This document shows positions 2,818 through 43,807 of a DNA stretch of 64,000 bases, piece after piece. Position 1 is the first letter of the stretch. Every line of letters begins with the position of its first letter. This DNA is from Pseudomonadota bacterium (GTDB lineage: Bacteria > Pseudomonadota > Gammaproteobacteria > Burkholderiales > Burkholderiaceae_C): positions 3,152 through 67,151 of the forward strand of contig JAZKIR010000020.1 of NCBI GenBank assembly GCA_040384785.1. Reading direction: 5' to 3'. Below the pieces are notes generated by a model. That model was not told the DNA's origin, did not search any database, and worked only from the letters and a program-made list of their open reading frames with translations. The position numbers were made by a program, and so were the translations under genes.

Positions 2818-2860
2818 TAGCCCTCGTGGAATATGCGCAAGCAGCTATCAAGTTAGCAGT
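2818..2860. repeat. Second dispersed repeat family (TAGCCCTCGT...GCTAT)
   Basis: Related copies at 6025-6068, 36171-36213, 46581-46620 (reverse) and 56981-57024. Confidence 0.7.
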
Positions 2861-2993
2861 AAATGACATCGGCTAACACGTTGCAACCCGCGCCGCCCCC
2901 AGGCAAACCTTGTTGTAGTGGGGGTGTCTCCGAGCAATGCGGTTCCGCGGCTGTGGGATGACCGCAAGCCGTAAGCATTGACCCCCCTGGCCC

Positions 2994-12067: not shown

Positions 12068-12217
12068 ATGCGGGTTTTCAATGATTCTAAAATTGGCATC
12101 ACAACTGCGCTAAACAGTATTAGAAAATTATCACTCAGATCCGTATCATCGGGCCTCTTCGCCAAAAAGGCAAAGATGACTGAAATCAAAACCAATCCTT
12201 CTCAGGAGACAAAAACC

Positions 12218-13294: not shown

Positions 13295-13350
13295 GCACTG
13301 CAGTAGGCCGCATGGCATAGCCCGCGGCCGCGAACAAACAACGCCCTGAA

Positions 13351-13493
13351 GGCAACGCTGAACAAGTACCACCGTTCGGGCTGAGCTAGTCGAAGCCCTC
13401 TGCAAGTCTTTGATTTGTATGGGCTGCGTTTCGACCCTTCGTCAAGCTCAGGACGGGCCAGGCTCAACGCGAACGGACTTAGTCAGCGAAGCC
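13351..13493. mobile_element. 143-bp MITE, copy 4 (GGCAACGCTGA...TCAGCGAAGCC terminal inverted repeats)
   Basis: 11-bp imperfect TIRs flanked by TGAA/TTAA; same length and nearly the same sequence as 41030-41172. Confidence 0.75.
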
Positions 13494-13506
13494 TTAAGAC
13501 AGATCA

Positions 13507-13528
13507 GAGGACGGCGCAAGCCGTCCTC
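13507..13528 (+). terminator. Stem-loop after chvE
   Basis: GAGGACGGC-GCAA-GCCGTCCTC with a T-rich tract shortly downstream. Confidence 0.55.
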
Positions 13529-13622
13529 CGGGGACCCTTTTTCTTAAATTTATGCATTTGCGGGACAGACCGCAGCTACGCGCAGCGAGCCAGCTCTGTC
13601 CTCAACACTTTAGAGACCCATC

Positions 13623-14804
13623 ATGAAACACATTTTCTCCATCAGCGCCATTGCGCTGGCCACCACCCTGTGCGCCGCTGGTGCCCACGCTGACGACGGC
13701 AGCTTCGAGTTCCACGGCTACTCCCGCGGTGGCCCTGTGAGCCCCTCGGACGGTATCAAGGGCCGCTTCCAGCTCGGCGGCGACACACAAGGCTACCGCC
13801 TGGGCAACGAAGGCGACAACGGCATCGAGATCGAGCTGAGCAAGACCTTCAAGACCGACGCCGCCAACTACAGGGTCCTGTACATGCCCGCCAAGTGGGG
13901 CAGCGGAAACGTGGGCACCGAGCAGGCCTTTGTCGAAATCGGCGGCATGGGCTTCTCGCCACAGTCCAAGTTCTGGGTTGGTCAGCGCCGCCTGCGGATC
14001 CAGGACGTGCACATCGTTGATTACTTTTTGATGAACTACGGTGACAACCAGGGCGCCGGTGTGACCGATATCCCGATTGGCGGCGCCAAGCTGGGCCTGG
14101 GTGTGTTCACCGGCGACAAGTTTGACACCCCCGCAGCGACGGGTGTCAACGCTACGCGTTTTAATGCCGACATTTCCGAGATCGGTATCAACCCCGGCGG
14201 CAAGTTGCGCGTATTGCTGACCGGCGTCAACGGTACGGGCCTTGCCAACAGCACCACCGGCTCCGGCATCTCCGTGTCGCACAACCAGAGCGACTTTCTG
14301 GTTAAAGGCATGAGCAATGCTCTGTTCCTGCAAACCTCCACGGGCCACGCCCGCATCGATGGCGAGTTCCTGAACATCGACGGTGTGGCCGGTGGCCAGA
14401 AGGTCACCCGCATTGCCGACTCTTTGGGTTGGCAACTGGGCGCCTTTGGTGGCCAGACCCTGCTGAGCTACCAGATCAACAAGGACGACGTGACCGGCAT
14501 CGAGACCAAGGACACCTCCATCGGTGGCCGTATCTCGTACGCGTTCTCCAAGAATTTCAAACTCTTGGTCGACGCTGCAACGACAACCCGCACCGGCAAT
14601 GGCCCGGACCAGCGCCTGGACAAGTTGACGATTGCACCCACACTGTCGGTCGGTCCTGATTTCTATGCCCGCCCAGAGTTGCGTTTGTATGTGACCATGG
14701 CAAACTGGAATGATGCAGCGGGTGCGGCCAACGCCAGCAGCTTTGGTGCAGGCGGCAAGACTGCGCGCACCGTTGCGGGCATCCAATACGAGATCTGGTG
14801 GTAA
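13623..14804 (+). CDS. lamB: LamB/maltoporin-family carbohydrate porin
   Basis: Signal peptide; FHGYSR, YRLGNE, KFWVGQR, RPELRLY motifs; C-terminal QYEIWW. Confidence 0.85.
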   Translation: MKHIFSISAIALATTLCAAGAHADDGSFEFHGYSRGGPVSPSDGIKGRFQLGGDTQGYRLGNEGDNGIEIELSKTFKTDAANYRVLYMPAKWGSGNVGTEQAFVEIGGMGFSPQSKFWVGQRRLRIQDVHIVDYFLMNYGDNQGAGVTDIPIGGAKLGLGVFTGDKFDTPAATGVNATRFNADISEIGINPGGKLRVLLTGVNGTGLANSTTGSGISVSHNQSDFLVKGMSNALFLQTSTGHARIDGEFLNIDGVAGGQKVTRIADSLGWQLGAFGGQTLLSYQINKDDVTGIETKDTSIGGRISYAFSKNFKLLVDAATTTRTGNGPDQRLDKLTIAPTLSVGPDFYARPELRLYVTMANWNDAAGAANASSFGAGGKTARTVAGIQYEIWW

Positions 14805-14819
14805 GTTTTTAGGTATTGA

Positions 14820-14974
14820 GGCTTTGCTGATTATTGAGAGTTCCGTATTTCAAGACACCGTTCGGGCTGAGCTTGGCCTGCCATGAGCCTGTCGAATGGT
14901 CGAAGCCTTTGAGCCCTTCGACAGGCTCAGGGCGAACGGAAAGGATTTCGTCGTGAAATTCGGAGGAATCAATA
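14820..14974. repeat. Palindromic REP/MITE-like element, copy 5
   Basis: Left end GGCTTTGCTGATTATTGAGAGTTCC, shared core, right end GGAATCAATA. Confidence 0.8.
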
Positions 14975-15005
14975 TTTAGGTTTTCTCGGGGGTTAGGCGT
15001 TTATA

Positions 15006-15032
15006 GGGCGGTCCTTCGGCCGCCCTTTTTTT
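15006..15032 (+). terminator. Intrinsic terminator-like hairpin between lamB and gguA
   Basis: GGGCGG-TCCTTCGG-CCGCCC followed by a T7 run. Confidence 0.6.
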
Positions 15033-15050
15033 ACGGATACTTGGGGCACT

Positions 15051-16583
<1,533 letters not shown>

Positions 16584-19970: not shown

Positions 19971-21416
19971 ATGACACTGCCACAACACAACAACCTCATA
20001 GCAGGTGAATGGGTCGCCTCCAGCCACTACGCGCCCAACATCAACCCGTCGAATCTGGAGGATGTGATTGGGGAATATGCACAAGCCGATGCCGCGCAGC
20101 TGAACGATGCAGTTGCCGCCGCACAGCGTGCTTTCCCTGCTTGGGCCACCGGCGGCATCCAGGCGCGCTCCGATGCACTCGACAAAATCGGCAGCGAAAT
20201 TTTGGCCCGCAAAGAGGAGCTGGGCACGCTGCTGGCCCGGGAGGAAGGCAAGACCCGCGCGGAAGGCATTGGCGAGGTCACCCGCGCCGGCAATATCTTC
20301 AAGTTCTTTGCTGGCGAGTGCCTGCGTTTGGCAGGCGAGGTTTTGCCATCGGTACGCCCCGGCATCGCGGTTGAAGTGACCCGCGAGCCCATGGGTGTTG
20401 TGGGTTTGATCACGCCCTGGAATTTCCCCATTGCGATCCCGGCCTGGAAGATTGCGCCCGCATTGGCCTATGGCAATTGCGTGGTGTTCAAGCCGGCCGA
20501 CATAGTGCCCGGATGCGCCTGGGCGCTGGCCGAGATCATCAGCCGCAGCGGCATTCCCGCCGGTGTTTTCAATTTGGTCATGGGCCGGGGCAGCGTGATT
20601 GGCGACCCGCTGGTGAACCACCCCGGCATTGCCGCGGTGAGCTTCACCGGATCGGTGGGTGTGGGCCAGCGTATTGCGCAGGCCTGTGCACTGAACATGA
20701 AGAAGGTCCAGTTGGAGATGGGCGGCAAGAACCCCCAAGTGGTGCTGGACGATGCGGACTTGGCGACTGCTGTGGAACTCAGCGTGCAGAGTTGTTTTTA
20801 TTCGACGGGCCAGCGCTGCACCGCATCGAGCCGCCTGATCGTGACCGACCGCATTTACCCGGAATTCATCGCCGCCATGCAACGCCGCATGGCCAGCATC
20901 CAGGTCGGTGATGCCTGCCAGACAGGAGTCGATATTGGCCCCGTCGCCTCACAGGCGCAGCTGGAGCAGGATCTGTCGTACGTGGAAATCGGCAAGGCTG
21001 AAGGCGCACAACTGCTGGTGGGCGGCGAACGACTGACACGGCCCACCGATGGTTTCTACATGGCGCCCGCGCTGTTTGTAGACAGCACTGCGAGCATGCG
21101 CATCAACCGCGAAGAGATCTTTGGCCCTGTGGCCAGCGTGATCCGCGTCAAGGACTATGAAGAAGCCTTGGCGGTTGCCAACGACACACCGTTTGGTCTT
21201 TCGGCTGGCATTGCCACGACCTCGCTCAAATACGCGACCCATTTCAAGCGCCACGCACAAGCAGGCATGGTCATGGTGAACCTGCCCACCGCCGGTGTGG
21301 ACTACCACGTGCCATTTGGCGGGCGCAAGGGTTCTAGTTATGGCTCGCGTGAGCAGGGAAAATACGCGCAGGAGTTTTTCACGACGGTGAAGACGGCGTA
21401 TGTGATGGGTGGGTAG
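19971..21416 (+). CDS. Aldehyde dehydrogenase (probable alpha-ketoglutaric semialdehyde dehydrogenase)
   Basis: ITPWNFP, FTGS, LEMGGKNP, GQRCTA and EIFGPV motifs; last gene of the arabinose operon. Confidence 0.85.
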   Translation: MTLPQHNNLIAGEWVASSHYAPNINPSNLEDVIGEYAQADAAQLNDAVAAAQRAFPAWATGGIQARSDALDKIGSEILARKEELGTLLAREEGKTRAEGIGEVTRAGNIFKFFAGECLRLAGEVLPSVRPGIAVEVTREPMGVVGLITPWNFPIAIPAWKIAPALAYGNCVVFKPADIVPGCAWALAEIISRSGIPAGVFNLVMGRGSVIGDPLVNHPGIAAVSFTGSVGVGQRIAQACALNMKKVQLEMGGKNPQVVLDDADLATAVELSVQSCFYSTGQRCTASSRLIVTDRIYPEFIAAMQRRMASIQVGDACQTGVDIGPVASQAQLEQDLSYVEIGKAEGAQLLVGGERLTRPTDGFYMAPALFVDSTASMRINREEIFGPVASVIRVKDYEEALAVANDTPFGLSAGIATTSLKYATHFKRHAQAGMVMVNLPTAGVDYHVPFGGRKGSSYGSREQGKYAQEFFTTVKTAYVMGG

Positions 21417-21554
21417 ATAGGGTTCTGTTGGGGCGTCTGAGGCGACCGCGCTGAAAAATAGCTCCCGACCCCATTGCAGAAGTAGCCACCGATTAGGTGG
21501 CCGTGTGACGCCGATATTCGAGTGTTTGCAAAAATACATTCCCAATGACCAAGC

Positions 21555-21573
21555 AAAGGACGCCCCGTCCTTT
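21555..21573. terminator. Possible bidirectional terminator at the island boundary
   Basis: AAAGGACG-CCC-CGTCCTTT perfect hairpin between convergent transcription units. Confidence 0.45.
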
Positions 21574-21760
21574 GGTGATAGTCGGTGATGGCCCTAGTCT
21601 GTGCCATTCCTTCACTAGCGGCAATATTGACTTATCGACAGTTAGCTGACTTTGTTGGCAAGTCACCCGTATTGAACGTAATGAGCGCCAACAGGCTGGC
21701 GCCTCGTAGCAATTGACCTCTGCCAAGTTCCGGCAGTCAGTGCAAGCAAATGCGCTGCCC

Positions 21761-23776
21761 CTACAGTCGCACAATTTCCCAAGTGTTCGCACAAATCCCT
21801 GCTTCAATCTTCTGAAATCGTGATTCGTGGAGCGCAAAGCATAGCAAATGTGTCGGCCGCGAGAAGCCAACGTACATCATTTTGGCAGACTGACGTACGA
21901 GGTCATGCATCTCTCCGTTTAATTGTTTCCCGAGCAATTGAGATGCTAGCCTTTCCGATTCATAGCTACCGCCAGCGCCTTTCTCATAAAACGTCTCCAT
22001 GTAGAGGGTCGCGGTGTGCGTCTCACCCTTGACTCGATGAACCGTGGCCACCTCCACGCGAACACCATCATGCGTTAGGACGTTGCGTTCAACTGGCGCC
22101 GAAGCTGTTCCGGAAGCGGCCAAGGCGTCCTCTAAGTCCCCAAACACAAATCCCTTGCTTACCTCAACCTGGCAGCCGAACACCGCGCAGAATACTGGCA
22201 ACTGCGTGCGAATGTCCTCCAGAACCTCATCCTGTTCTCCCTTCGCAATCCCCATGCACCAGTTGTATAAGTTGATCTGAAAGGTCTGCCATTCGTTGGG
22301 ATGCTCGGACATCATGAACTCCCGCATGGTGTGTTTTACGAAGGGCAGGCCTGCTGAATCCTTTGCCTCTTCCAATCTTAGGATCCAGAGCAACGCTTTG
22401 ACGATGGAACTTTCGATCGGAGCAAACTGGCCGCAGCCCGTCACTGAATTTGCCAAAGCACCGGCTAGCACCGTATGCTCGGTGCGGCCTCGTTGAGCCC
22501 CTCTTTCGTATTGCGGGTAGTAGTCGGGCAGGCGCGTTTTGGTTGGCTCGGCCTTTGTCGCCCAGCCAATAGCCTTGCACCGGGTCTTGTCCGTCAGTGG
22601 CAAGACCTTCGCGTTCGCTAATTCGCGAACGATAGTTGCAAATCGGTGGATAACGGTCGGCAGAGTCGCATCTGAGTAGACGATAAAGCGCGGCTTGATC
22701 ATAATCAGTGAACCGTCGGGGTTTGTTCGGCGTCCGTCGATGTGAATGGGGCTGACGGCAAATGTGCTCACGACGCCGGCAAGCAACGGACCCAATCGGT
22801 AGCTTCCGTTTAGCTCCAACACCGTTTCACGATTCGCCCAGAACTCGCCGGATGTGGTCGTCTTACTCCCAAAGATTGACTGATTCCTGTCGCCTATGCG
22901 TTGGTATCCAACCCCGCTCGCACCCTCGTCAAAGAAGAGATTCTCCAGCAGCTCGTACTGATGACGCTCCATATCCTGCATTTCATCAACAAACACGTGA
23001 GAAAAACGCCGCTGGAGCAGCGGCTTAAGTGGCGCATATCTATAGAGTGCCACACGCGCCAGAAAGTACGCATCGTCATAGCAGAGAAAGCCGGACTTAA
23101 GTATGGATAGCTTGAAAGCATGAATCCACTCCCGCACACGTACTCTTTCGCTCTCGTTCCAGTCGTTGTAGTTTTGCGGCTTAGTATTACCTTGAGGCTT
23201 CCGGAACTCGATGGCTTTTCCACAGTAGCCGTCGGTCAGCGCATCTTTGCCATCCGCCCACGACCATCGAATCTTCTTGGCATGCGCCTTCAGGAAGCGT
23301 CTGGCGTTCTTGTTTTCTTGGTGGGTGAACCCTTTAACGCTCATCGGTGGATTCGTGAAACGCTGCTCATAAATGGCGTCGTCAATGTGTGCTGGCGCCT
23401 TGTGGTATCGATTTAGATAGTAGGGGATCGCGAGAAACTCGTCCACAAAGCGCTGTATTGTTCCTACAAAGTTTGGGTAGCGAAACAATTGGGTGCAATG
23501 CGGGCCGATACGGTCGCGTATTTCGTCGATGGCTGCATTGGTATGCGAGATGACCAAAATGCCGGCACCGTCCTGCCTTGGCAGCTTGCGATCCAAGATC
23601 AGCAGCTTGGCAAGCAGCGCAGTTGTCTTGCCGCTGCCGGGTACGGCGAGCAAGTCCAGTGTTTCCATGTTTTCTATGAACCGCCGTCGCTCCTCGTCAA
23701 AAGACTCCCCCTCGGGCAGTAGTATTCGCTCTGCATAGGCGATGTCGTCAGGCGCGAGGCTGAAGTCCACTGGCAT
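21761..23776 (-). CDS. gajB: UvrD-like helicase, Gabija GajB
   Basis: AVPGSGKTT, SHTNAA, DEMQD, GDRNQSIF, TVHRVKGE and YVGFSRP motifs; overlaps the end of gajA. Confidence 0.85.
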   Translation of the reverse strand: MPVDFSLAPDDIAYAERILLPEGESFDEERRRFIENMETLDLLAVPGSGKTTALLAKLLILDRKLPRQDGAGILVISHTNAAIDEIRDRIGPHCTQLFRYPNFVGTIQRFVDEFLAIPYYLNRYHKAPAHIDDAIYEQRFTNPPMSVKGFTHQENKNARRFLKAHAKKIRWSWADGKDALTDGYCGKAIEFRKPQGNTKPQNYNDWNESERVRVREWIHAFKLSILKSGFLCYDDAYFLARVALYRYAPLKPLLQRRFSHVFVDEMQDMERHQYELLENLFFDEGASGVGYQRIGDRNQSIFGSKTTTSGEFWANRETVLELNGSYRLGPLLAGVVSTFAVSPIHIDGRRTNPDGSLIMIKPRFIVYSDATLPTVIHRFATIVRELANAKVLPLTDKTRCKAIGWATKAEPTKTRLPDYYPQYERGAQRGRTEHTVLAGALANSVTGCGQFAPIESSIVKALLWILRLEEAKDSAGLPFVKHTMREFMMSEHPNEWQTFQINLYNWCMGIAKGEQDEVLEDIRTQLPVFCAVFGCQVEVSKGFVFGDLEDALAASGTASAPVERNVLTHDGVRVEVATVHRVKGETHTATLYMETFYEKGAGGSYESERLASQLLGKQLNGEMHDLVRQSAKMMYVGFSRPTHLLCFALHESRFQKIEAGICANTWEIVRL

Positions 23777-25508
23777 AACGGATAGCGTCGATTAGGTACT
23801 TGACATGCGGGTCGCTGCACAACCCGTTGCCGTCGATCTCGCCCTTGGCCATGGCCTGCGCGAGGCGGGCAGAAATTTCGGTCTTCGCGAGCACATGGCG
23901 CTGCAGTTTGTCGGACAAGGTCGCCTCAAAGTCTGTCCAATCTGATCTGCTGTGTACAGCCTTGGCAATCTCCGTGAATTTGGCACTAAAGGTCGTCGAC
24001 TTCCAGAGGCAGTACTCTAACGTCCACTGAGGTGAGATGAACGACTTCACACACTGACCATCGTACTTGGTCTCCTTGTTAGAGATGGCCGCCTTGAGTA
24101 GCGCTTTGTCGCCCGCAACTGGCCCGTCTTCCTTCAAAGGCAGAATATCGGCATCAGTGACGACAGCGATAGGCCTGGTGAAATGGGGGACATGCTTGCG
24201 TTTGAAAATGTTTGTGTAATGGATGAAAGCCAGACTACTTACATTGATGACTGCTACGCCAGCAGACGTCAAGTTGTAGCCAGCCAGCCGGGCGAGTTCG
24301 TGCAGCAACAGTTCCTCGGACCACCCCTCTACAAGAATCGCGCCCCGCGAAAAGAAAAGGTTTGCTTTCGTCACATCGAGGAACCGCTCGAGGAAAGCGT
24401 AGTCGTCGGTTCCGAGTTCTGTATGTCCTGCGCCCATTGGAAACGCATTGCCGCTGCCGCAAATGACCAGATTCTTGAGTTGGAGTTTGGAGCCAATGTT
24501 AGGGCTATGGGTGGTCAGAATAAGCTGGACCTCCTTTTGCTTCTGAAATGTCTCGATTGCCTGCATTTGAGCTTGCGGATGCAAGTGGGCTTCAAGCTCC
24601 TCGACTAATCCAAGTCGCAACCCTGTCCAGTTCTCTTTGTTAAGGTGCAGCAGTTCCGACGCCATGAACAGGCGGTTAAGCGTCCCAAGTCCAGGTCGTG
24701 TCTCGCCTTTAATCGAAAGTTCCAACTTTTCCAGGAGGCTTCTGAGCTGCGCGCGTTCGGTGACCGCGAGGCTTGTTTTGCTGCCCGGTTGGTACAGCGC
24801 GCCAATGTATGTGTCGATCTGGTCTTTCAACCCCTTGCCGAGTTGGTCACCGATCTGGACGCCAGCGTGATCGGTCCCATCGAAGTAACTTTCGATGGAC
24901 CCGTTGAATGCCGCCAGCAACTTCAACAGGACATGGTCAGTATTCTTGTTCTTAAATGCCTCATGTCCCACGAGAATCTGAGACAGACGAGAATTCTTGC
25001 GTGCAACGAGCTCCTCTTCGGCGTCGCGAAGTGGCTTCAGATAGGTAACTTTTAAATACTCCCTGGCTTCTGGACTAAGCGCCCGTCCGTGAGCATCCGC
25101 GCCCGCGCGAACTTCGTGAGGAAGTATCTTCCCATTTGAGGGATTCCTATAAACGTCGAGATTGAGAGTCAGTAGCGGGTTTACCTTGCCTTCCGAAGTT
25201 TCCCAAGCCAGGAACTCCGTGAAGTTCTTGCCTTCGTCAAGGCCGATGTCGGACAGAACCAATTCAATTCGCAACCGGTGCTGATCAGCATGAAAATCGT
25301 TCTCATCGATCCGGGCCCAATCGTAGCTATGAGTCTTCAGTACAAATCGAATCGCATCGATGATGGCAGATTTCCCCGAATCGTTCTCACCAATCAGCAC
25401 ATTCAATCCAGAATTGAATGTCAGTGCGAGATCGGGCTTTGTCAATGAGAATTCGGCGCTCCCGCCAAACTTCCTGAAGTTCCATAGTTTGAGCGTCGAT
25501 AGATGCAC
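23748..25508 (-). CDS. gajA: OLD-family ATP-dependent nuclease, Gabija GajA
   Basis: LWNFRKF, GENDSGKS, EELEAHLHP, TTHSP, and TOPRIM VEGWSE/TDAD motifs. Probable GTG start at 25508; the ORF extends to 25535. Confidence 0.88.
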   Translation of the reverse strand: MHLSTLKLWNFRKFGGSAEFSLTKPDLALTFNSGLNVLIGENDSGKSAIIDAIRFVLKTHSYDWARIDENDFHADQHRLRIELVLSDIGLDEGKNFTEFLAWETSEGKVNPLLTLNLDVYRNPSNGKILPHEVRAGADAHGRALSPEAREYLKVTYLKPLRDAEEELVARKNSRLSQILVGHEAFKNKNTDHVLLKLLAAFNGSIESYFDGTDHAGVQIGDQLGKGLKDQIDTYIGALYQPGSKTSLAVTERAQLRSLLEKLELSIKGETRPGLGTLNRLFMASELLHLNKENWTGLRLGLVEELEAHLHPQAQMQAIETFQKQKEVQLILTTHSPNIGSKLQLKNLVICGSGNAFPMGAGHTELGTDDYAFLERFLDVTKANLFFSRGAILVEGWSEELLLHELARLAGYNLTSAGVAVINVSSLAFIHYTNIFKRKHVPHFTRPIAVVTDADILPLKEDGPVAGDKALLKAAISNKETKYDGQCVKSFISPQWTLEYCLWKSTTFSAKFTEIAKAVHSRSDWTDFEATLSDKLQRHVLAKTEISARLAQAMAKGEIDGNGLCSDPHVKYLIDAIRYASGLQPRA

Positions 25509-25723
25509 GGGTGAGGTCCAATAAGGAGGATTCAAGAAGCAGAAGGATGTTAACTCTGCGTTGCTCTCCTGTGTCGCAAAAATTTCTCAAATCGCTTTTC
25601 GAAGTTGGCTATTGATAATCGAACATTGTCGTTAACCATCAAATGACTGCACCGGCGGCTACGGTCGTATGTGCATGACCGGTAGCCACTCCAACAATCG
25701 GTCAGAGTAGTTGGTCTGCATGG

Positions 25724-27916
25724 TTACTGCGGGGGGGTTAAGAATCCCATGTCAATCAGACTCTGTTCGCTTATGCCGTAGGCAACGAGTTTTGCCCAAG
25801 CCGCAGCAATGTCTTTCTCCGCTCCCATCTTGCCTGCGATCAACGCCATGGCCAACTCGACATGGTAGAGATTTGCGTCTTCATCAAGCGGTGGAGTCTG
25901 AATCGCCTTGACTAGATACTTTCCCATTTCCACTGACACTTCGTCCGAAGTGAGGGATCGAAGAATGGAGCAGGCAATCAGCTTTTCCGTGTAAGCGTCA
26001 CGAAACACGAAGCACGCGAGTCGTGTTGGCTTGGTCAGGGAGTAAGGATCCAAGACTGTTCCCTCGCCAGTTCTAAGCTGCTGCACAGCGCTCGCTGTGG
26101 CCACAAGTACCTGCAGTTGCGAAGACCCAGCCTTTCCTGCAACTGATCCTGCTCCCAATGGTGGGAAAGGAGCACCCCCAGGCAACCAGGTGAGATGCTC
26201 CATGGGATCAAGCTGCTCTCCATTTGACAACTGAGCCAGACGGGCGATGAGAGGGCTGTCCAGCTTCCCGCTCCCACTCGCCAGCCTTTCAAGCCATCTC
26301 TTTTCGTGACACCATGGGCAGTCAGTCGGGGTGTGCCAGTCTGGGAGGTGCACGCAATAGAGATGATGCAGTGTAGCTCCCCAGTCGTGGTTAGTCGTCA
26401 GCCCGCTTTTCACCTCCTCGAGTTGCTTTTTCGACTTGGTGGTTACTATTGGCGCGAAGAAGTGAACGTGATTGAATGTGTCCCATAAATGCGGGCGGGG
26501 TGTGCGCAAACGGACGTTGAGGTTACGCATCCGATCCCCGGAGACGATCTTGTCATCAAAGACCAATACTGTTGGCTTTCTGGCGAGGTTCTGCAGTTCG
26601 TCGAGCTGATCCTGAAAAACCACAGGCAGGTCGCGCCACTTTTTAATCGTCTCTCTGAGCAAATCGCTGGCCTTGTGATTGGCAATGACGACAAAGTCAG
26701 GTTGGGGATCCAATGACTGCAATTTCTGAATAACCTCGTCATGGAATTCCGGCGTCCTGAGCAGTACCGTTGCATCAATACCGAACGCGTGATGTCTGGG
26801 GTACGCCTCATTCGGATCATCGAAGTGCACCCTTAGCGCACCCGGAACTGCGCCGTACTTGTCCAGGAACGGCCGCTGCTCTTCGAAGAATTTCCTCTGG
26901 AGCTTGACCTCTTTGATCTCCGCGATACCGATAAGAAAGGAGTTTCCATGGACTCTTATCGGCGGCGGCTTTCCCTGCCCGCAGTGTTCACAAGAGGCTG
27001 CATCGGATGAGTGGAAATATCCCACGACCGAGAGTCGGGCTAAGGGCGTTAGATCATCAGGAAGATCGGTAGCTGCAAAGACCAAACAGATGTCCAATTC
27101 AATCTGGCTGGCCTCCGCCAACTCCGTGAGTACGTTGGCAAGCTTTCCTGTAGACGCAATTCCGATTACCGCTGTGATCGGTGGACCTTTGACTAAAATT
27201 CGCGAAGTTTCCGCTCTAAGCGTAGCTTCACTCGGATATCCTTTCAGACAGAGCACCTGATGCATTCCGCCATAGATATGGTTAACGTGTGTCCCGAGCA
27301 GTAGCATGCTGGGATGGTCCACCAGGAACCTGCGTTCCGGCAAGCTTTCGTCATGTGCCAGTTCCGCAACCAGAGACACAACTACCCAGTAAGCGGTTCG
27401 CTGTACTGCCTCTACACAGTCGAAAGCTTCGGAAAGGCGAATGAAGTGTGATGCGTGCGCTTTCGAGGGCAATTCGAAGTGCTGACCGGCGGGGGCGTGA
27501 ACAATGCAGCGAGGAAGTCCGTCCTCTATGGCGGCGTGCATAGCTTGCGCCACAAGCGCTTGAAGATCTTGCTCGCTCAAGGCGGAAAACGGTGCACCTT
27601 CCGCGACCTCATACTGAAATCGCAGTGGCTTGTAGGAGCCAGCGCGCAGGGTATTCACACCACGTCCGCAAAGCCATTCAGGGTCAGGTGCAAAAAAAAG
27701 GGCTCTTCCAGCCAGACGCTCCATTGCTTGGTGCCGAGCCACATCGATAGCTGTGTCTAGAGGCAGCCCCTGCGCCGATGCTTCCATCCACTGGGGACCT
27801 TTGAGGTAAATCAGAATGCTGTCGGCCTCCTGCACGCTCCTCTCGTCTAACCGAGTGAGTGCAGAACCAAGATCGCTGAGATCCGACAGCACCTCATGAC
27901 GCACAAAGGTTTTCAT
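25724..27916 (-). CDS. Uncharacterised 730-aa protein with two type I phosphoribosyltransferase-like domains and a possible STAS-like N-terminus
   Basis: HFELPSKAHASHFIRL (OPRT-like hood), degenerate VIGIASTG and intact VLVFDDKIVSG PRPP loops, CEHC and CPWC motifs. Confidence 0.6.
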   Translation of the reverse strand: MKTFVRHEVLSDLSDLGSALTRLDERSVQEADSILIYLKGPQWMEASAQGLPLDTAIDVARHQAMERLAGRALFFAPDPEWLCGRGVNTLRAGSYKPLRFQYEVAEGAPFSALSEQDLQALVAQAMHAAIEDGLPRCIVHAPAGQHFELPSKAHASHFIRLSEAFDCVEAVQRTAYWVVVSLVAELAHDESLPERRFLVDHPSMLLLGTHVNHIYGGMHQVLCLKGYPSEATLRAETSRILVKGPPITAVIGIASTGKLANVLTELAEASQIELDICLVFAATDLPDDLTPLARLSVVGYFHSSDAASCEHCGQGKPPPIRVHGNSFLIGIAEIKEVKLQRKFFEEQRPFLDKYGAVPGALRVHFDDPNEAYPRHHAFGIDATVLLRTPEFHDEVIQKLQSLDPQPDFVVIANHKASDLLRETIKKWRDLPVVFQDQLDELQNLARKPTVLVFDDKIVSGDRMRNLNVRLRTPRPHLWDTFNHVHFFAPIVTTKSKKQLEEVKSGLTTNHDWGATLHHLYCVHLPDWHTPTDCPWCHEKRWLERLASGSGKLDSPLIARLAQLSNGEQLDPMEHLTWLPGGAPFPPLGAGSVAGKAGSSQLQVLVATASAVQQLRTGEGTVLDPYSLTKPTRLACFVFRDAYTEKLIACSILRSLTSDEVSVEMGKYLVKAIQTPPLDEDANLYHVELAMALIAGKMGAEKDIAAAWAKLVAYGISEQSLIDMGFLTPPQ

Positions 27917-29061
27917 GCAACAGGGGAGAGGTTCTTTCGGTCGAACAAGTCAGGCTGGTCTAGACCGGGAGCATATTCTGGAACCCATATAGATATGGAA
28001 GTACCGCATCCCCGGGTTAAGTCGTCCTCCACGACGGCGTTCCTATCTAATTGCGGATAGGGAGACTCCCCAAACGAAAAATCCTGGACATAGTGAATAC
28101 CTGAAGAGTGAATTTCGATGCGAGCACGCATCTTGTGGGCAGCAGACAATGCATGCGAAAGTCCCAAGCCCCGTTTAATTGCCCCCTGCGGCTTTCGGGT
28201 CACTTCGCGAACAAAGGCACGTGCGAACCGGTCCCTCGCCGACTCATCAGGCGATGCCGCTGGCAAAGTCACCTGGATACCGTCTCCTTGGTCCGCTACC
28301 GTTAAGCATACTAGCCCAAGCCCCAACTTGCCCTCTGGCGATTCAGTCGTTCTGGAGATGTACTCCCGCAGTCCCTTCGATAGCTTGTCAAGCTTTGTAG
28401 TAGTACCGACGACTACCTTCTCAATCAGCAGCGCCCTGACGCCTTGACGAGCAACCTTGTTCTTTGACGATTGGCCATGTTCTTGGGAATTGACGAAGCA
28501 TTCAAACACAAACGAGTTCAAGGGTGACTCAGTAGACGAGTTCAGAAAGCTGCGAAAACCCATGGCCACTGTCATCGAGGTGAGCAGTTGACGAAAGTCA
28601 GACTCGTCTAGGGGGAAGTCTTTGTCCTCATTCTTGGCGTAGGCCTTGAGCTTAGTCGGCAGCTTGTGGCCTGGGTCTACGCAAACCAAGGCGCAGTTCT
28701 GCCCCTTGCCTAGAAGGCCTCCGCGTTGCAAGTAAAAGTGGGCCAGGTTCTCATCAAATGTTTTTGACGCGGCCTTGCTTTCCTGCCCAAACGACTTCTC
28801 CTTCGAATGGCGGATAAGGGAGATGCCAAACGGGCCGCCCAACAAGCAAGCTTCAAACTCTTCGGCGCTTACCGGTTCTGGGAACGCACACTGCATGACT
28901 AGCTCGCCCTTCTTGTGGGTGGCGAGTTTTGCGAGTGCAAGCCCTTGTGCACCAGGTTCAAAGCCAGAGGACCGAGTGAGCCTGAATCCATTGATGACAG
29001 ACATGTCCCAAGACCGGACATCGTCAATCGTGCAGTTTTCAACAATGGTTTGAATCTTCAT
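27913..29061 (-). CDS. GHKL (histidine-kinase-like) ATPase domain protein
   Basis: N-box ECFVNSQEHG, G1 VADQGDGI, G2 RGLGL and terminal GTSISIW; ATGA overlap with the PRTase gene. Start is ATG 29061, or 29214 for the longest ORF. Confidence 0.7.
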   Translation of the reverse strand: MKIQTIVENCTIDDVRSWDMSVINGFRLTRSSGFEPGAQGLALAKLATHKKGELVMQCAFPEPVSAEEFEACLLGGPFGISLIRHSKEKSFGQESKAASKTFDENLAHFYLQRGGLLGKGQNCALVCVDPGHKLPTKLKAYAKNEDKDFPLDESDFRQLLTSMTVAMGFRSFLNSSTESPLNSFVFECFVNSQEHGQSSKNKVARQGVRALLIEKVVVGTTTKLDKLSKGLREYISRTTESPEGKLGLGLVCLTVADQGDGIQVTLPAASPDESARDRFARAFVREVTRKPQGAIKRGLGLSHALSAAHKMRARIEIHSSGIHYVQDFSFGESPYPQLDRNAVVEDDLTRGCGTSISIWVPEYAPGLDQPDLFDRKNLSPVA

Positions 29062-29531
29062 ATGTATGTCCCTAGCAGACTTCACCAACGAAGCATTAGC
29101 GTCTTTCGGCCAAATATGCGTAACGAAGAAGTCGATGCTCTGACAGTCTGAGCAGTCAGCCTTTTCGGCAATAGATATCGTAGCAGCCTCTGAAATGAAG
29201 GGCTGCTTTCGCATTCAGGCTGTTGATCGTACCCGTTGATACAACACCCATGAATGATTGCTTTGTAGCAATGACCCTGGGGGCGCTAAATACTTCTTTA
29301 GGTGAAAGCCCGACAGCTATCGATAGCCCGATATTCCCGATAGCCAAGGTTCTGGGACTTGCGTGCCCTTCCATAAGATGTATTGAAACCCGGGCGCCAC
29401 CGGTGAGTTCCAACCTCCGAAGTTTTTCAACACAGCGCTCGATAGCTGCCGTTCGCGAAGGACTGGAACTGGCCTCGGTGCAGAGACCGTGATGATGGCT
29501 GATAGGTAGTTGGGCCAGCCAACCGACGCCG

Positions 29532-30176
29532 TCAGCCTTGGAGTTCTCGCCAAGCTTGAACATACAAGCGCCCCCTGGCCAGCACCTCACTGGCGGGTGT
29601 GCCCGGCGCATAAAGCTGGCTACCGATGCCAAAGCCGGTGGCCCCAGCAGCGGCCCACGGCGCCATGCTCTCTGGCGTGATGCCGCCTACGGGCCACAGG
29701 TCGGTGCCTGCGGGCAGCACGGATTTCAAAGCCTTCAGCCCGCCATGCCCGACCATTTCTGCGGGGAAAAGTTTGAGCGCATGGGCACCGGCTTCCAGGG
29801 CCGTAAAGGCCTCGGTCGGTGTGGCGACACCGGGTGCGCACAACATGCCCAGTTCCACGCTGCGGGCGATCACGCGCGCATCGCAGTTGGGGGAGACCAT
29901 CAAACGCCCACCGTGGGCATGGACCGCTTCCACATCGGCCACGGTCAACATGGTGCCGCCGCCTACCAGCGCATCGGTCGGCAGCCTGCGGGCCAGTATC
30001 TCTATGCACTGCAGCGCGCCTGGGCGGTTCAGCGGGACCTCCAAGGTACGGAAACCACTCTCCAGCATCGCCTCACCCACGGCCAGTGCGTTGGCAGGGT
30101 CCAGACCACGCAGGATGGCCACCAGCGGCATGTTGCGGGTTTGAGCCAGTCGTTGTTGTGGTGCAGTGTTCATCAT
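29532..30176 (-). CDS. dgoA: 2-dehydro-3-deoxy-6-phosphogalactonate aldolase
   Basis: PLVAILRG, EVPLN, VSPN, LKLFPAE and GFGIGSQLY motifs. Confidence 0.92.
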   Translation of the reverse strand: MMNTAPQQRLAQTRNMPLVAILRGLDPANALAVGEAMLESGFRTLEVPLNRPGALQCIEILARRLPTDALVGGGTMLTVADVEAVHAHGGRLMVSPNCDARVIARSVELGMLCAPGVATPTEAFTALEAGAHALKLFPAEMVGHGGLKALKSVLPAGTDLWPVGGITPESMAPWAAAGATGFGIGSQLYAPGTPASEVLARGRLYVQAWRELQG

Positions 30177-43488: not shown

Positions 43489-43578
43489 TGTCTCCTGTTT
43501 ATCCGGCCTGGTGCAGGCCAGTGTTTTTTGACGGGCTTGTCAAAGCCATCTCGCCGCATCCAATGCAATGTCATGCAT

Positions 43579-43664
43579 TTAGTTTTTGCAACGAACTAAT
43601 TATGGAGAGGCGTGGGGCACCTGCGAATAGGGGCAAACCCGATATAGTTCACTGAACAAACTTA
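43579..43664. promoter_or_regulatory. Two putative ROK/XylR operators
   Basis: TTAGTT-N9-AACTAA (43579-43599) and ATAGTT-N9-AACTTA (43644-43664) upstream of xylF. Confidence 0.5.
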
Positions 43665-43807
43665 ATAAGTGGCATCGCCAAACCCTGTATTGGATCGATT
43701 GGTGAAACAGTAATGAGCGGAAAGTGCGGTTTATCTGTGCGAATTTAGAAACTAAAGTCCGTACCAGCGCTTCAGAGCTTTCTTTCAAACATCCACAGGA
43801 GTTTTCC

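What the first reader, a model, noticed from the sequence alone, without database searches (positions are those of the whole stretch)
25724..29214. Candidate new anti-phage module: GHKL ATPase coupled to a tandem-PRTase protein, directly upstream of Gabija
Seen in the sequence: two same-strand genes joined by an ATGA overlap, about 190 bp upstream of gajA in an AT-richer island. The first gene has all GHKL boxes ([22 protein letters not shown]) but no recognisable H-box, transmembrane sensor or receiver partner. The 730-aa second gene has two repeated units. Unit 1 has an OPRT-like HFELPS hood (aa 146), a PRPP loop lacking the acidic pair (VIGIASTG, aa 250) and CEHC. Unit 2 has an intact VLVFDDKIVSG loop (aa 450) and CPWC. 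The N-terminus (IYLKGPQWMEASA, S47) loosely resembles the phosphorylated loop of STAS anti-anti-sigma domains. Established knowledge: SpoIIAB/RsbW-type GHKL kinases phosphorylate STAS serines; PRTases occur in defence systems such as ShosTA; defence genes cluster. Inference: a partner-switch in which the ATPase/kinase gates a PRTase effector that drains PRPP or nucleotides, or modifies a target, on infection. PRTase-type conflict effectors have been predicted computationally, so novelty must be checked.
Basis: partly seen in the sequence, partly recalled or inferred. Interest (0 to 1): 0.88.

Follow-up and report, generated by a model that had tools for sequence, protein, structure and literature searches.

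The report
GHKL ATPase plus tandem-PRTase defence-island pair
Two overlapping genes next to a Gabija system encode a histidine-kinase-like ATPase and a protein with two phosphoribosyltransferase-like domains; this pair travels between bacterial defence islands and is a distant, untested relative of the catalogued candidate anti-phage system PDC-M65.

Summary
Two minus-strand genes overlap by ATGA. Gene A runs 27913-29061 and is 382 aa, not the 433-aa ORF. Gene B runs 25724-27916 and is 730 aa. They lie 188 bp upstream of a complete gajA/gajB, in a four-gene island of lower GC.

A has all the GHKL boxes, and they are conserved. Its relatives hit Pfam HATPase_c, and Foldseek gives only GHKL-type matches.

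B has a PRTase fold. Its two units are homologous (hhalign E 2.4e-6). Unit 2 keeps the canonical DD-x-x-x-SG PRPP loop; unit 1 has lost the acidic pair.

A sits directly upstream of B in all 25 related loci. These loci are flanked by Gabija, BREX, Type III R-M, SIR2-HerA, ShosTA, MzaE/AIPR or Avs1, often with integrases. The pair is therefore an autonomous, mobile module associated with defence islands.

It is not new as a candidate. Both proteins hit PADLOC PDC-M65A/B weakly and in register, and 63 of 64 diverse relatives of B hit PDC-M65B. I found no paper that tests or names this system.

The proposed STAS-like phospho-serine S47 is not conserved. A kinase role for A remains possible but is untested.

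Best model, largely inferred: A is an ATP-dependent regulator, and B is a PRPP-using effector that disrupts nucleotide metabolism on infection.

The parts
27913..29061 (-). Gene A, 382 aa. It has an N-terminal alpha/beta domain of unknown family (aa 1-135, 28657-29061), a linker, and a C-terminal GHKL (Bergerat-fold) ATP-binding domain (aa 176-365, 27967-28536).
   Evidence: ORF. Start at ATG 29061 with an RBS. Alignment A2 of 31 homologues. HATPase_c is hit by 25 of 31 members and HATPase_c_2 by 7 of 31. AF2 model: pLDDT 84, pTM 0.87. Foldseek matches are GHKL ATPases only.
29062..29214 (-). It is probably untranslated leader or promoter region.
   Evidence: Gene callers and most homologues start at the downstream Met. 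The RBS AGGGA lies at 29069-29073.
28474..28503 (-). N box of A: E187-CFV-N191-SQE-H195-G196. This is the ExxxNxxxHG form typical of histidine and anti-sigma kinases, not the ExxxNxxDA form of GyrB/Hsp90/MutL/MORC.
   Evidence: E187, N191, E194, H195 and G196 are invariant in A2. The assignment to a motif class rests on established knowledge of GHKL families.
27913..27916 (-). ATGA overlap: the TGA stop of A and the ATG start of B. This implies translational coupling.
   Evidence: Sequence. A ends at or near the start of B in all 25 related loci.
25724..27916 (-). Gene B, 730 aa. Domain order: variable N-terminal alpha/beta domain, degenerate PRTase-like unit 1, PRTase unit 2, conserved helical C-terminal domain.
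   Evidence: ORF. Alignments A1, A3 and A4. AF2 model, pLDDT 74. Foldseek gives OPRT/APRT/HGPRT at E 1e-5 to 1e-3, probability 1.0. 842 family representatives.
27605..27916 (-). N-terminal domain of B (aa 1-104), a small beta-alpha-beta domain.
   Evidence: Identity to the distant clade is 11-18%, against 30-40% for the PRTase units. Distant relatives align only from about residue 110. S47 is not conserved.
26912..27604 (-). PRTase-like unit 1 (aa 105-335). It has an OPRT-like hood motif H146-F-x-L-P-S151-x-x-H154...F158-x-R160, then VDHP (199-202). Its PRPP-loop equivalent IGIASTG (251-257) lacks the acidic pair. It ends with H302...C309-x-x-C312. It is probably a non-catalytic ligand-binding or regulatory pseudo-PRTase.
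   Evidence: Conservation. Homology to unit 2: hhalign probability 88.9, E 2.4e-6.
26282..26911 (-). PRTase unit 2 (aa 336-545). Its hood is H364-F-D-D-P...R374-H375-H376. It has a canonical PRPP loop VLVFD454D455KIVSG460 (D454/D455 at 26552-26557). It ends with W527-H528...C533-P-W-C536-x-E538. It is the predicted catalytic domain.
   Evidence: D454, D455 and G460 are at least 90% conserved, and C533, C536, E538 and H364 are invariant, in 100 relatives. Profile hit to APRT at the PRPP loop. Pribosyltran is hit by 23 of 64 relatives, best E 4.5e-10, and PRTase-CE by 11 of 64. It is the most conserved domain.
25727..26281 (-). C-terminal helical domain of B (aa 546-730), of unknown fold. Residues conserved across the superfamily: S591, R615, R653 and E687 are invariant; R559, L563, Q612 and L622 are at least 90% conserved. 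S591 lies in a Gly-rich loop that is predicted to be flexible.
   Evidence: Low pLDDT at 548-631. Invariant columns.
23748..25535 (-). gajA, the Gabija OLD-family ATPase-TOPRIM nuclease. It is a neighbouring system, not part of the A-B module.
   Evidence: PADLOC GajA E 2.8e-202; Pfam AAA_15 and OLD-like_TOPRIM.
21761..23776 (-). gajB, the Gabija UvrD-like helicase. It overlaps gajA by 29 nt.
   Evidence: PADLOC GajB E 2.9e-233; Pfam UvrD-helicase.

Best explanation
A and B form an autonomous two-gene module that is horizontally mobile and most likely acts in anti-phage defence. It is a divergent clade of the uncharacterised PADLOC candidate PDC-M65.

Shown by sequence, structure prediction and context:
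- A is a GHKL-fold ATP-binding protein with a novel N-terminal alpha/beta domain.
- B carries two homologous PRTase-derived domains. Unit 2 keeps the PRPP/Mg-binding DD-x-x-x-SG loop. Unit 1 keeps only the phosphate-binding STG loop and an OPRT-like hood. Each unit ends in a His...CxxC motif.
- The two genes are always adjacent, in the order A then B, and usually overlap.
- The pair is found beside many different known defence systems and integrases.

Inferred mechanism:
- B unit 2 is the effector. It consumes PRPP and/or phosphoribosylates a base or other nucleophile, which perturbs nucleotide pools or targets as the ShosT-type PRTase toxin does. This would stop phage replication, probably at a cost to the cell.
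- B unit 1 and the conserved C-terminal domain act as ligand-sensing or auto-inhibitory elements.
- A uses ATP binding and hydrolysis, or phosphotransfer, to hold B inactive or to switch it on when infection is sensed.
- The fast-evolving N-terminal domain of B supplies partner or trigger specificity.
For: Operon:
- ATGA overlap.
- A sits directly upstream of B in all 25 loci, with B identity from 25% to 86%.

GHKL:
- Invariant N, G1, G2 and G3 boxes.
- HATPase_c hit by 25 of 31 members.
- Foldseek best hits are ParE, GyrB, TopoII, sacsin and MORC2, a phage HATPase_c protein at probability 1.0, and an EsV-1 histidine kinase at 0.98.

PRTase:
- Foldseek gives OPRT/APRT/HGPRT at E 1e-5 to 1e-3, probability 1.0.
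- Profile hit to APRT at the PRPP loop.
- Pribosyltran hit by 23 of 64 relatives and PRTase-CE by 11 of 64.
- Weak ShosT hits (4 of 64 relatives) and retron III-A PRTase hits (one relative for each of two PRTase_III-A models).
- Internal duplication at E 2.4e-6.

Defence context, adjacent or within about 3 kb:
- Gabija: the window and L015.
- Type III R-M: L001 and L011.
- ShosTA: L003/L004.
- SIR2-HerA: L018.
- MzaE/AIPR plus a NERD helicase: L016.
- BREX: L019.
- Avs1b/c on C. necator pHG1.
- HipA plus NERD: L005.
- Integrases or IS elements: L007, L013, L015, L018, L024.
- Relatives of 85-88% identity sit beside different systems, so the pair moves as a unit.

PDC-M65 link:
- B hits PDC-M65B at E 1e-6 and A hits PDC-M65A at E 2e-3. 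The matches are collinear, and the gene order and lengths are the same (398/763 against 382/730).
- 63 of 64 diverse relatives of B hit PDC-M65B, best E 1e-38.
- 13 of 31 relatives of A hit PDC-M65A, best E 3.5e-5.

Precedent: ShosT binds PRPP and is toxic through disturbed purine metabolism (PMC11961720).
Against: - No member of this family or of PDC-M65 has been tested. PDCs are explicitly unvalidated, and one tested PDC showed no activity (PMC12409345).
- About 8 of 19 neighbourhoods show no recognisable defence gene next to the pair: L002, L006, L008, L010, L021 and, in part, L007, L009 and L023.
- The window's own B has no Pfam hit, and A is below the HATPase_c gathering score.
- Structural matches for A are weak: the best PDB E-value is 9e-3.
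- Unit 2 has no obvious long flexible loop.
- The acceptor substrate is unknown.
- Nothing shows that A and B interact physically.
- Nothing shows whether A is an ATPase or a kinase.
- No expression data exist; the window is a metagenome contig.
Confidence: 0.5

Rival explanations
1. Toxin-antitoxin logic, as in ShosTA. B is an intrinsically toxic PRTase. A is a labile or stoichiometric antitoxin that neutralises it. Phage-induced shut-off of host expression frees B. ATP binding by A would serve folding or sequestration rather than sensing.
For: - The genes are translationally coupled and overlap.
- The pair is strictly conserved.
- ShosTA works this way with a PRTase toxin (PMC11961720).
- DS-32 pairs a PRTase with a NADAR antitoxin-like protein (bioRxiv 10.1101/2025.01.08.631726).
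- A is more conserved than B in every pair.
Against: - The putative antitoxin is encoded first and is a 382-aa enzyme-like protein with fully conserved ATP-binding boxes. That suggests catalysis, not mere sequestration.
- There are no data on toxicity or protein stability.
Confidence: 0.2
2. Partner-switch kinase model. A is a SpoIIAB/RsbW- or HK-like protein kinase that phosphorylates B, and the phosphorylation state gates the PRTase.
For: - The N box is ExxxNxxxHG and the G2 box is GLGL, both typical of kinase-class GHKL proteins. The GHKL domain is C-terminal, as in histidine kinases.
- HATPase_c_2, the anti-sigma kinase family, is hit weakly by 7 of 31 members.
- Histidine-kinase hits in BFVD.
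- B has one superfamily-invariant serine, S591, in a Gly-rich loop predicted to be flexible.
Against: - The proposed acceptor S47 is not conserved, and the N-terminal domain is absent or unalignable in most of the superfamily.
- There is no H box or DHp domain, no STAS or REC Pfam hit, and no phosphatase or sigma-factor partner.
- The PDB structural neighbours are topoisomerase, MORC and sacsin ATPases.
- S591 as acceptor is pure speculation.
Confidence: 0.13
3. A-B is an accessory module of Gabija, making a four-gene system. For example, it could tune the nucleotide pools that are known to regulate GajA.
For: - It lies on the same strand, 188 bp upstream of gajA, with no predicted terminator between them.
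- A second, independent adjacency of A-B directly upstream of GajA/GajB occurs in L015, with a different Gabija subtype.
Against: - None of the other 23 loci held has Gabija nearby.
- The closest relatives (85-88% identity) sit next to BREX, MzaE/AIPR or no recognised system.
- Gabija is complete and functional as a two-gene system in the literature.
- The promoter and terminator scan is only a crude consensus scan.
Confidence: 0.05
4. Not an immune system. It would be a mobile-element maintenance, addiction or regulatory module, or a nucleotide-salvage or secondary-metabolism regulator such as a PurR/PyrR-like PRPP or alarmone sensor, that merely hitch-hikes in variable genomic islands.
For: - Several neighbourhoods are housekeeping or uninformative: L006, L008, L010.
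- PRTase-like domains can be non-catalytic ligand sensors. B. subtilis PurR bound to ppGpp appears among the fold hits.
- Unit 1 is degenerate.
- There is no experimental evidence for defence.
Against: - Recognised defence systems are directly adjacent in about 10 of 19 neighbourhoods. That is far above what the small share of a genome devoted to defence genes would give (my estimate, not measured here).
- B has no DNA-binding domain.
- The unit 2 catalytic motif is under strong conservation.
- The family is sporadically distributed and occurs on megaplasmids.
Confidence: 0.12

Closest known systems
PADLOC candidate system PDC-M65 (PDC-M65A + PDC-M65B; PADLOC-DB v2.0.0, 2023)
   Same: - Two adjacent same-strand genes in the same order.
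- Similar lengths: HMMs of 398 and 763 positions against proteins of 382 and 730 aa.
- Both window proteins give collinear hits, and to no other PADLOC family.
- 63 of 64 diverse relatives of B hit PDC-M65B, and 13 of 31 relatives of A hit PDC-M65A.
   Different: - The window's hits are weak and partial: E 1e-6 over about a third of the B model and E 2e-3 over about a third of the A model. PADLOC would probably not call it.
- The N-terminal ~105 aa of B is specific to this clade.
- PDC-M65 is only a computational candidate. I found no paper that mentions it.
ShosTA (and PsyrTA) toxin-antitoxin defence systems
   Same: - A PRTase-domain protein is the toxic effector. ShosT binds PRPP through the three canonical loops and perturbs purine metabolism (PMC11961720).
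- It is a two-gene operon in defence islands.
- A few relatives of B give weak ShosT hits.
   Different: - ShosT is a HAD-like pyrophosphatase fused to a single PRTase, and its partner ShosA is DprA-like.
- Here the partner is a GHKL ATPase, and the effector is a tandem PRTase with CxxC motifs and an extra C-terminal domain.
- The window's B does not hit ShosT.
- In L003/L004 a bona fide ShosTA sits next to an A-B pair as a separate system.
Retron type III-A PRTase-like effectors and Ophion OpnC
   Same: PRTase-like effector domains that are required for anti-phage defence (PMC12746101; bioRxiv 10.1101/2025.09.30.679545). One relative of B gives a weak hit to each of two PRTase_III-A models.
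   Different: There is no reverse transcriptase or ncRNA, and no rSAM or PHP partner, next to A-B. Those effectors have a single PRTase domain.
Detocs (histidine kinase, phosphotransfer protein and REC-PNP effector). This comparison is from my own knowledge and was not tested here.
   Same: Conceptually it couples a GHKL-class ATP-using sensor or regulator to an effector that attacks nucleotide metabolism.
   Different: A has no H box or DHp domain. There is no Hpt protein or REC domain. The effector here is a PRTase, not a purine nucleoside phosphorylase.
GHKL-regulated defence proteins (paraMORC/Shedu type I-D VcSduA; SLFN-pAgo GHKL)
   Same: A GHKL ATPase is thought to control an effector (PMC12137116; bioRxiv 10.64898/2026.05.29.728809).
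   Different: In those systems the GHKL domain is N-terminal, MORC-like, and fused to a nuclease or Ago. In A it is C-terminal, has a kinase-type N box, and is a separate polypeptide from a PRTase effector.
Type I phosphoribosyltransferases (OPRT PyrE, APRT, HGPRT) and ComFC. The comparison with ComFC is from my own knowledge.
   Same: The fold is shared. Both have an OPRT-like F-x-L-x-S hood motif and a PRPP loop (unit 2). As in ComFC, Cys-x-x-Cys motifs accompany a PRTase fold.
   Different: The B family is a 730-aa tandem architecture with extra domains. Unit 1 lacks the acidic pair. The CxxC motifs follow each PRTase unit, rather than preceding it as in ComFC. The genes are not in a nucleotide-biosynthesis or competence context.

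Membership tests
PADLOC PDC-M65 (candidate two-gene system) | Protein matching the PDC-M65B HMM | tested here: inconclusive
   The window's B gives E 1e-6 and 25 bits, covering residues 301-547 against model positions 299-557 of 763. By transitivity, 63 of 64 diverse family members hit PDC-M65B, best E 1e-38. Superfamily membership is clear. Meeting PADLOC's own calling threshold is unlikely.
PADLOC PDC-M65 (candidate two-gene system) | Adjacent protein matching the PDC-M65A HMM | tested here: inconclusive
   The window's A gives E 1.7e-3 to 2.1e-3 over model positions 129-277 of 398. 13 of 31 relatives hit it, best E 3.5e-5, and no other PADLOC family recurs.
PADLOC PDC-M65 (candidate two-gene system) | Gene order A then B, same strand, adjacent | tested here: met
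   ATGA overlap in the window. The order is the same in all 25 loci.
GHKL (Bergerat-fold) ATPase/kinase superfamily | N box (E/N), G1 (DxGxG), G2 (GxGL) and G3 (GT) motifs in the correct order | tested here: met
   E187/N191, D257-x-G259-x-G261, G298-L-G300-L301 and G353-T354 are invariant or at least 90% conserved in 31 homologues.
GHKL (Bergerat-fold) ATPase/kinase superfamily | Profile or fold match to HATPase_c | tested here: met
   HATPase_c is hit by 25 of 31 members, best E 7e-5; the window's own protein scores 16.7 bits, below the gathering score of 26.4. Foldseek gives a phage HATPase_c protein at probability 1.0, and GyrB/ParE/TopoII/MORC2/sacsin at E 9e-3 to 0.3.
GHKL (Bergerat-fold) ATPase/kinase superfamily | ATP binding and hydrolysis or phosphotransfer | not testable with these tools
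   Needs biochemistry.
Two-component histidine kinase | DHp/HisKA domain with a phospho-accepting His (H box), and a REC-domain partner | tested here: not met
   Neither protein hits HisKA, HPt or Response_reg. The N-terminal domain of A is alpha/beta, not a helical hairpin. No REC gene is in the island.
SpoIIAB/RsbW-type anti-sigma Ser kinase with a STAS partner | STAS-domain partner with a conserved phospho-accepting Ser/Thr | tested here: not met
   S47 is replaced by V or A in homologues, and only W43 is invariant nearby. B has no STAS Pfam hit. The N-terminal domain is not conserved across the superfamily.
SpoIIAB/RsbW-type anti-sigma Ser kinase with a STAS partner | Small single-domain HATPase_c_2 kinase | tested here: inconclusive
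   HATPase_c_2 is hit weakly by 7 of 31 members, best E 1.9e-3. The N box is of the kinase type. But A is 382 aa and has an extra N-terminal domain.
Type I phosphoribosyltransferase | PRTase fold | tested here: met
   Foldseek gives OPRT, APRT, HGPRT and XPRT at probability 1.0, E down to 1.2e-5. Pribosyltran is hit by 23 of 64 relatives, best E 4.5e-10.
Type I phosphoribosyltransferase | PRPP loop: four hydrophobic residues, two acidic residues, then x-x-(S/T)-G | tested here: met
   Unit 2 has VLVFD454D455KIVSG460. D454, D455 and G460 are at least 90% conserved in 100 relatives. Unit 1 (VIGIASTG) does not meet this feature because it has no acidic pair.
Type I phosphoribosyltransferase | PRPP-dependent phosphoribosyl transfer to a defined acceptor | not testable with these tools
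   Needs enzymology. Even for ShosT the acceptor is unknown (PMC11961720).
ShosTA | ShosT (PPase-PRTase) together with a DprA-like ShosA | tested here: not met
   The window's proteins hit neither ShosT nor ShosA. There is no DprA-like ORF in the island. A true ShosTA was recognised in L004 with the same tool, so the test works.
Gabija (as extra subunits) | Consistent co-occurrence with gajA and gajB | tested here: not met
   Gabija is adjacent only in the window and in L015. It is absent from the other 23 loci.

The most novel reading that the evidence does not exclude
The pair is a new immune mechanism, not another PRPP drain. In this reading A, a kinase-class GHKL protein, uses ATP to license B. 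B's catalytic unit 2 then phosphoribosylates a macromolecule (phage DNA, RNA or protein) or makes a non-canonical nucleotide. The degenerate unit 1 acts as an allosteric nucleotide or PRPP sensor, and the invariant Ser591 loop or the C-terminal domain is the switch. The DS-32 system, which pairs a PRTase with a NADAR glycohydrolase-like protein, hints that some defence PRTases may make a reversible macromolecular modification.
Probability: 0.12. Interest if true: 0.85.

Novelty: new member of a known kind. Interest (0 to 1): 0.55.

Why it matters
If the pair protects against phage, it would validate PDC-M65, a whole uncharacterised candidate family. That family has about 840 representatives at 50% identity, mostly in Proteobacteria and including the megaplasmids of Ralstonia solanacearum and Cupriavidus necator H16.

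It would also add a new regulatory logic to PRTase-based immunity: a GHKL ATPase or kinase controlling a tandem enzyme/pseudo-enzyme PRTase. How defence PRTases kill or arrest cells is still unresolved even for ShosT. A system with a clear catalytic unit, a degenerate sensor-like unit and an ATP-dependent partner is a tractable model for that question.

The divergent clade found here would also extend the detection models of PADLOC and DefenseFinder.

Tried and rejected
Searches that found nothing or little:
- Pfam and NCBIfam on the window's own proteins. B has no hit and A has only a sub-threshold HATPase_c hit. The domains had to be established through relatives.
- HMMER profiles against PDB sequences. 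These gave only an E~2 APRT hit for B and nothing for A.
- hhalign of unit 1 against unit 2 on the shallow 26-sequence alignment. The result was insignificant (probability 5). It became significant only with the 100-sequence alignment.
- IMG/VR viral contigs and GenBank phages. No relative of B was found, so there is no evidence that the pair is phage-borne.
- The search for related loci with the diverse alignments A4 and A5. This failed because no stretch was conserved enough, so neighbourhoods of the most distant relatives could not be surveyed.
- A profile search with A2. It did not reach beyond the same ~62 clusters.
- Literature searches for PDC-M65, PRTase-CE and GHKL+PRTase defence. No paper describes this architecture.
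- Sequencing-run search. Only metagenomic DNA runs hold the sequence, so no transcription evidence is available.
- Direct and inverted repeats, tRNAs and integrases flanking the island. None was found.

Ideas rejected:
- S47 as a STAS-like phospho-site: the residue is not conserved.
- Histidine-kinase two-component membership: there is no H box and no REC domain.
- Obligatory linkage to Gabija.
- Membership of ShosTA or of the retron systems.

Full report
**1. What is in the sequence**

Four long minus-strand ORFs fill window 21.7-29.2 kb:
- gajB, 21761-23776
- gajA, 23748-25535
- a 730-aa ORF, "B", 25724-27916
- a 433-aa ORF, 27913-29214

PADLOC models identify the first two as a complete Gabija system: GajA at E 2.8e-202 and GajB at E 2.9e-233.

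GC is 0.50-0.55 over 21-29 kb, against 0.62-0.65 on both sides. The flanks are housekeeping. On one side is an ORF I read as an aldehyde dehydrogenase (19971-21416). On the other are ORFs I read as dgoA/dgoK-like genes and sugar ABC transporter genes. These three names are my own reading of the translations; I did not run them against a family library.

I found no tRNA, integrase or flanking repeat.

The junction between the two upstream genes reads GCATGAAAACC. The TGA stop of the first gene overlaps the ATG start of B. B ends 188 bp before gajA.

The first gene ("A") almost certainly starts at the ATG at 29061, giving 382 aa. That ATG has an AGGGA Shine-Dalgarno 7 nt upstream. Gene callers and 25 of the 31 aligned homologues start there.

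The window is a contig from a watershed metagenome. No RNA data exist for it.

**2. Protein A**

On its own, A gives only a sub-threshold HATPase_c hit at E 0.01. In an alignment of 31 homologues of 38-90% identity, the Bergerat-fold boxes are invariant or nearly so:
- E187-x3-N191-x3-H195-G196
- D257-x-G259-x-G261
- G298-L-G300-L301
- G353-T354

HATPase_c is hit by 25 of 31 family members, with a best E of 7e-5. HATPase_c_2 is hit by 7 of 31.

The AlphaFold2 model is confident (pLDDT 84, pTM 0.87). It shows an N-terminal alpha/beta domain (aa 1-135) packed against the C-terminal GHKL domain.

The recognisable Foldseek matches, including all the best-scoring ones, are GHKL proteins, but they are weak:
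- Against the PDB: ParE, GyrB, TopoII, TopoVI-B, sacsin SR1 and MORC2, with a best E of 9e-3.
- Against BFVD: a phage HATPase_c protein at probability 1.0, and an EsV-1 histidine kinase at 0.98.

The N box has the form ExxxNxxxHG and the G2 box is GLGL. By established knowledge of the superfamily, these forms are typical of the kinase branch (histidine kinases, SpoIIAB/RsbW). The GyrB/Hsp90/MutL/MORC branch has ExxxNxxDA instead. The GHKL domain is also C-terminal, as in kinases.

There is no H box or DHp domain, no transmembrane segment and no REC partner. I therefore conclude only that A is a GHKL-fold ATP-binding protein. Whether it is an ATPase or a kinase is open.

**3. Protein B**

B has no Pfam or NCBIfam hit of its own.

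The AlphaFold2 model has pLDDT 74, and residues 1-530 are mostly confident. Foldseek matches it to orotate, adenine and hypoxanthine-guanine phosphoribosyltransferases at probability 1.0, with E down to 1.2e-5. The family profile aligns the stretch around VLVFDDKIVSG to the PRPP loop of E. coli APRT.

A full HMMER search of 1.84 billion representative proteins found 842 relatives at E <= 1e-3, and 261 at E <= 1e-30. Nearly all are 700-780 aa long and align from about residue 110 to about residue 700.

Among 64 diverse relatives:
- 23 hit Pfam Pribosyltran (best E 4.5e-10).
- 11 hit PRTase-CE.

Residues that are invariant or at least 90% conserved in 100 relatives of 17-60% identity:
- H146, P150, H154, F158, R160, W177, D200, G257
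- C309, C312
- H364, R374, H375, H376
- D454, D455, G460
- C533, P534, W535, C536, E538
- R559, L563, Q612, R615, L622, R653, E687

S591 is invariant in the 64-sequence subset.

Profile-profile alignment of residues 125-320 against residues 345-545 gives probability 88.9 and E 2.4e-6 over 160-176 columns. The alignment is in register:
- HFxxPS..H aligns with VHxDDP..RHH.
- VDHPS aligns with the equivalent strand and loop.
- SVsSSG aligns with DDVxITG.
- CxxC aligns with CPWC.

B is therefore a tandem duplication of a PRTase-derived module. Unit 2 keeps the acidic pair and the SG of the PRPP loop. Unit 1 keeps only the phosphate-binding STG and an OPRT-like hood.

The N-terminal ~105 residues are the most divergent part: 11-18% identity in the distant clade, against 30-40% for the PRTase units.

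The C-terminal ~185 residues are helical, are modelled with low confidence, and carry several invariant residues.

**4. The proposed STAS-like phospho-serine**

S47 is replaced by V or A in many close homologues. In that stretch only W43 is invariant. The whole N-terminal domain is not conserved across the superfamily.

**5. Is the pair a unit, and where does it live?**

In all 25 related loci fetched, an A homologue lies directly upstream of the B homologue. B identity ranges from 25% to 86%. A is always somewhat better conserved than B.

Gabija is not conserved next to the pair. It recurs only in L015, where GajA is a different subtype, 24% identical to the window's.

Neighbourhoods of distinct loci:

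| Locus | Neighbours |
|---|---|
| L001 (Limnohabitans) | Type III R-M plus a dynamin-like/MIT_C protein |
| L011/L012 | Type III R-M |
| L003/L004 (Pigmentiphaga) | ShosA (E 4e-108) and ShosT (E 8.5e-40), directly upstream |
| L018 | SIR2-HerA, with an integrase |
| L016 | MzaE/AIPR and a NERD helicase |
| L019 (B 85% identical) | BREX: PglX, PglZ, BrxL |
| L024 (C. necator H16 pHG1) | Avs1b/Avs1c about 3 kb away, and IS66 |
| L005 (Pseudomonas sediminis) | HipA plus NERD |
| L013 | Integrases, an SbcCD-like pair and a UvrD-like helicase |
| L009 (Chitinimonas) | SF1 helicase-DUF2726, DUF3987, YagK |
| L007 | ThiF-DUF6791, HTH-M78, IS66 |
| L002, L006, L008, L010, L021, L023 | Uninformative or housekeeping |

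About 10 of 19 distinct neighbourhoods therefore have a recognised defence system immediately beside the pair. Relatives of 85-88% identity sit beside different systems. This is the signature of an autonomous module that shuttles between defence islands.

Homologues occur on Ralstonia and Cupriavidus megaplasmids. None occurs in the phage collections searched.

**6. Relation to what is known**

PADLOC-DB v2.0.0 contains a two-gene "phage defence candidate", PDC-M65. Its A model has 398 positions and its B model has 763.
- The window's A hits PDC-M65A at E 2e-3, and B hits PDC-M65B at E 1e-6. The matches are collinear, and neither protein hits any other PADLOC family.
- 63 of 64 diverse relatives of B hit PDC-M65B, with a best E of 1e-38.
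- 13 of 31 relatives of A hit PDC-M65A, with a best E of 3.5e-5.

The pair is thus a divergent clade of the PDC-M65 superfamily, probably below PADLOC's calling thresholds.

PDCs are unvalidated predictions (PMC12409345). A few others have been tested, with mixed results (PMC12881386). No paper in the searchable library mentions PDC-M65 or a GHKL+PRTase defence system.

Experimentally supported defence PRTases differ in architecture and in partners:
- ShosT is a HAD-type pyrophosphatase fused to a PRTase, with the DprA-like ShosA as partner. It binds PRPP and disturbs purine metabolism (PMC11961720).
- PsyrT.
- Retron III-A effectors (PMC12746101).
- Ophion OpnC, with rSAM and PHP partners (bioRxiv 10.1101/2025.09.30.679545).
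- DS-32, a PRTase with a NADAR partner (bioRxiv 10.1101/2025.01.08.631726).

**7. Most likely mechanism**

Shown:
- The fold assignments.
- Conservation of the ATP-binding residues in A and the PRPP-binding residues in B unit 2.
- Degeneracy of unit 1.
- Operon coupling.
- Mobility between defence islands.

Inferred:
- B unit 2 uses PRPP to deplete it, or to phosphoribosylate a base or other target. This would collapse nucleotide supply or modify a target and so abort phage replication.
- Unit 1 and the C-terminal domain sense a ligand or auto-inhibit.
- A uses ATP to keep B off or to switch it on.
- The fast-evolving N-terminus of B provides specificity.

I give this general scheme about 0.5. 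The rivals, with confidences:
- ShosTA-like toxin-antitoxin logic: 0.2.
- A true kinase partner switch on a site other than S47: 0.13. The only superfamily-invariant serine, S591, lies in a flexible Gly-rich loop and would be the first residue to test.
- A non-immune role: 0.12.
- A Gabija accessory role: 0.05.

**8. Verdict**

The folds, the operon and the defence context hold. The STAS/S47 switch does not. Novelty is reduced, because the architecture is already catalogued as the candidate PDC-M65 and PRTase effectors are established in defence.

The pair remains an uncharacterised and mechanistically interesting system, and culturable hosts carry orthologues. I score interest at 0.55.

Noticed in passing
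L015:1232-7378 compared with window 21761-29061: The arrangement A-B followed directly by GajA-GajB on the same strand occurs a second time. There the Gabija is a different subtype: GajA is 521 aa and matches PDLC00102, GajB is 344 aa and matches PDLC00148, and GajA is only 24% identical to the window's. B is 53% identical. This is either chance, since Gabija is common, or a weak preferential association.
   Followed up: partly
window 21400-29530: The island holds four genes and has lower GC (0.50-0.55 against 0.62-0.65). It sits between an ORF I read as an aldehyde dehydrogenase (19971-21416) and a dgoA-like ORF (29532-30176). It has no integrase, tRNA or flanking direct repeat, so how it was inserted is unclear.
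   Followed up: partly
window 23748-23776: The listed gajA ORF begins at a TTG at 25535, which is the first ATG/GTG/TTG after the upstream stop, so the true start may lie downstream. Its 3' end overlaps the start of gajB by 29 nt.
   Followed up: no
L003:6746-8337 and L004:6881-8472: In Pigmentiphaga humi and in a Burkholderiales MAG, a bona fide ShosA/ShosT pair lies immediately upstream of the A-B pair. Two different PRTase-based systems therefore sit side by side.
   Followed up: partly
L024 (Cupriavidus necator H16 pHG1, record 162815-166232): The model strain C. necator H16 carries a distant A-B pair on megaplasmid pHG1: H16_RS32265 (379 aa) and H16_RS35355 (756 aa), both annotated as hypothetical. 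It lies about 3 kb from an annotated Avs1b/Avs1c system and next to IS66 elements. This gives a convenient experimental entry point.
   Followed up: partly
window 25724-27916 (B) and 27913-29061 (A), compared across all loci: In every pair, A is more conserved than B, for example 87 against 86%, 67 against 56%, 40 against 31% and 30 against 25%. Within B, the N-terminal 104 aa diverge fastest and PRTase unit 2 slowest.
   Followed up: yes
window 26144-26146 (B Ser591): S591 is the only serine invariant across 64 diverse superfamily members. It lies in a low-confidence Gly-rich loop (PLGAGSVAGKAGSS) of the C-terminal domain. It could be a regulatory site or phospho-site, but this is purely speculative.
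   Followed up: no
L010:12301-14126: In one genome (GCA_006365075.1) the pair lies among ABC-transporter genes. It is followed by a small ankyrin-repeat protein and an Hsp70-like protein. The significance is unknown.
   Followed up: no
window 2001-4000, 12001-16000, 43001-44000, 53001-54000: These are other patches of lower GC in the window (0.53-0.59). They might be further horizontally acquired segments. I did not examine them.
   Followed up: no
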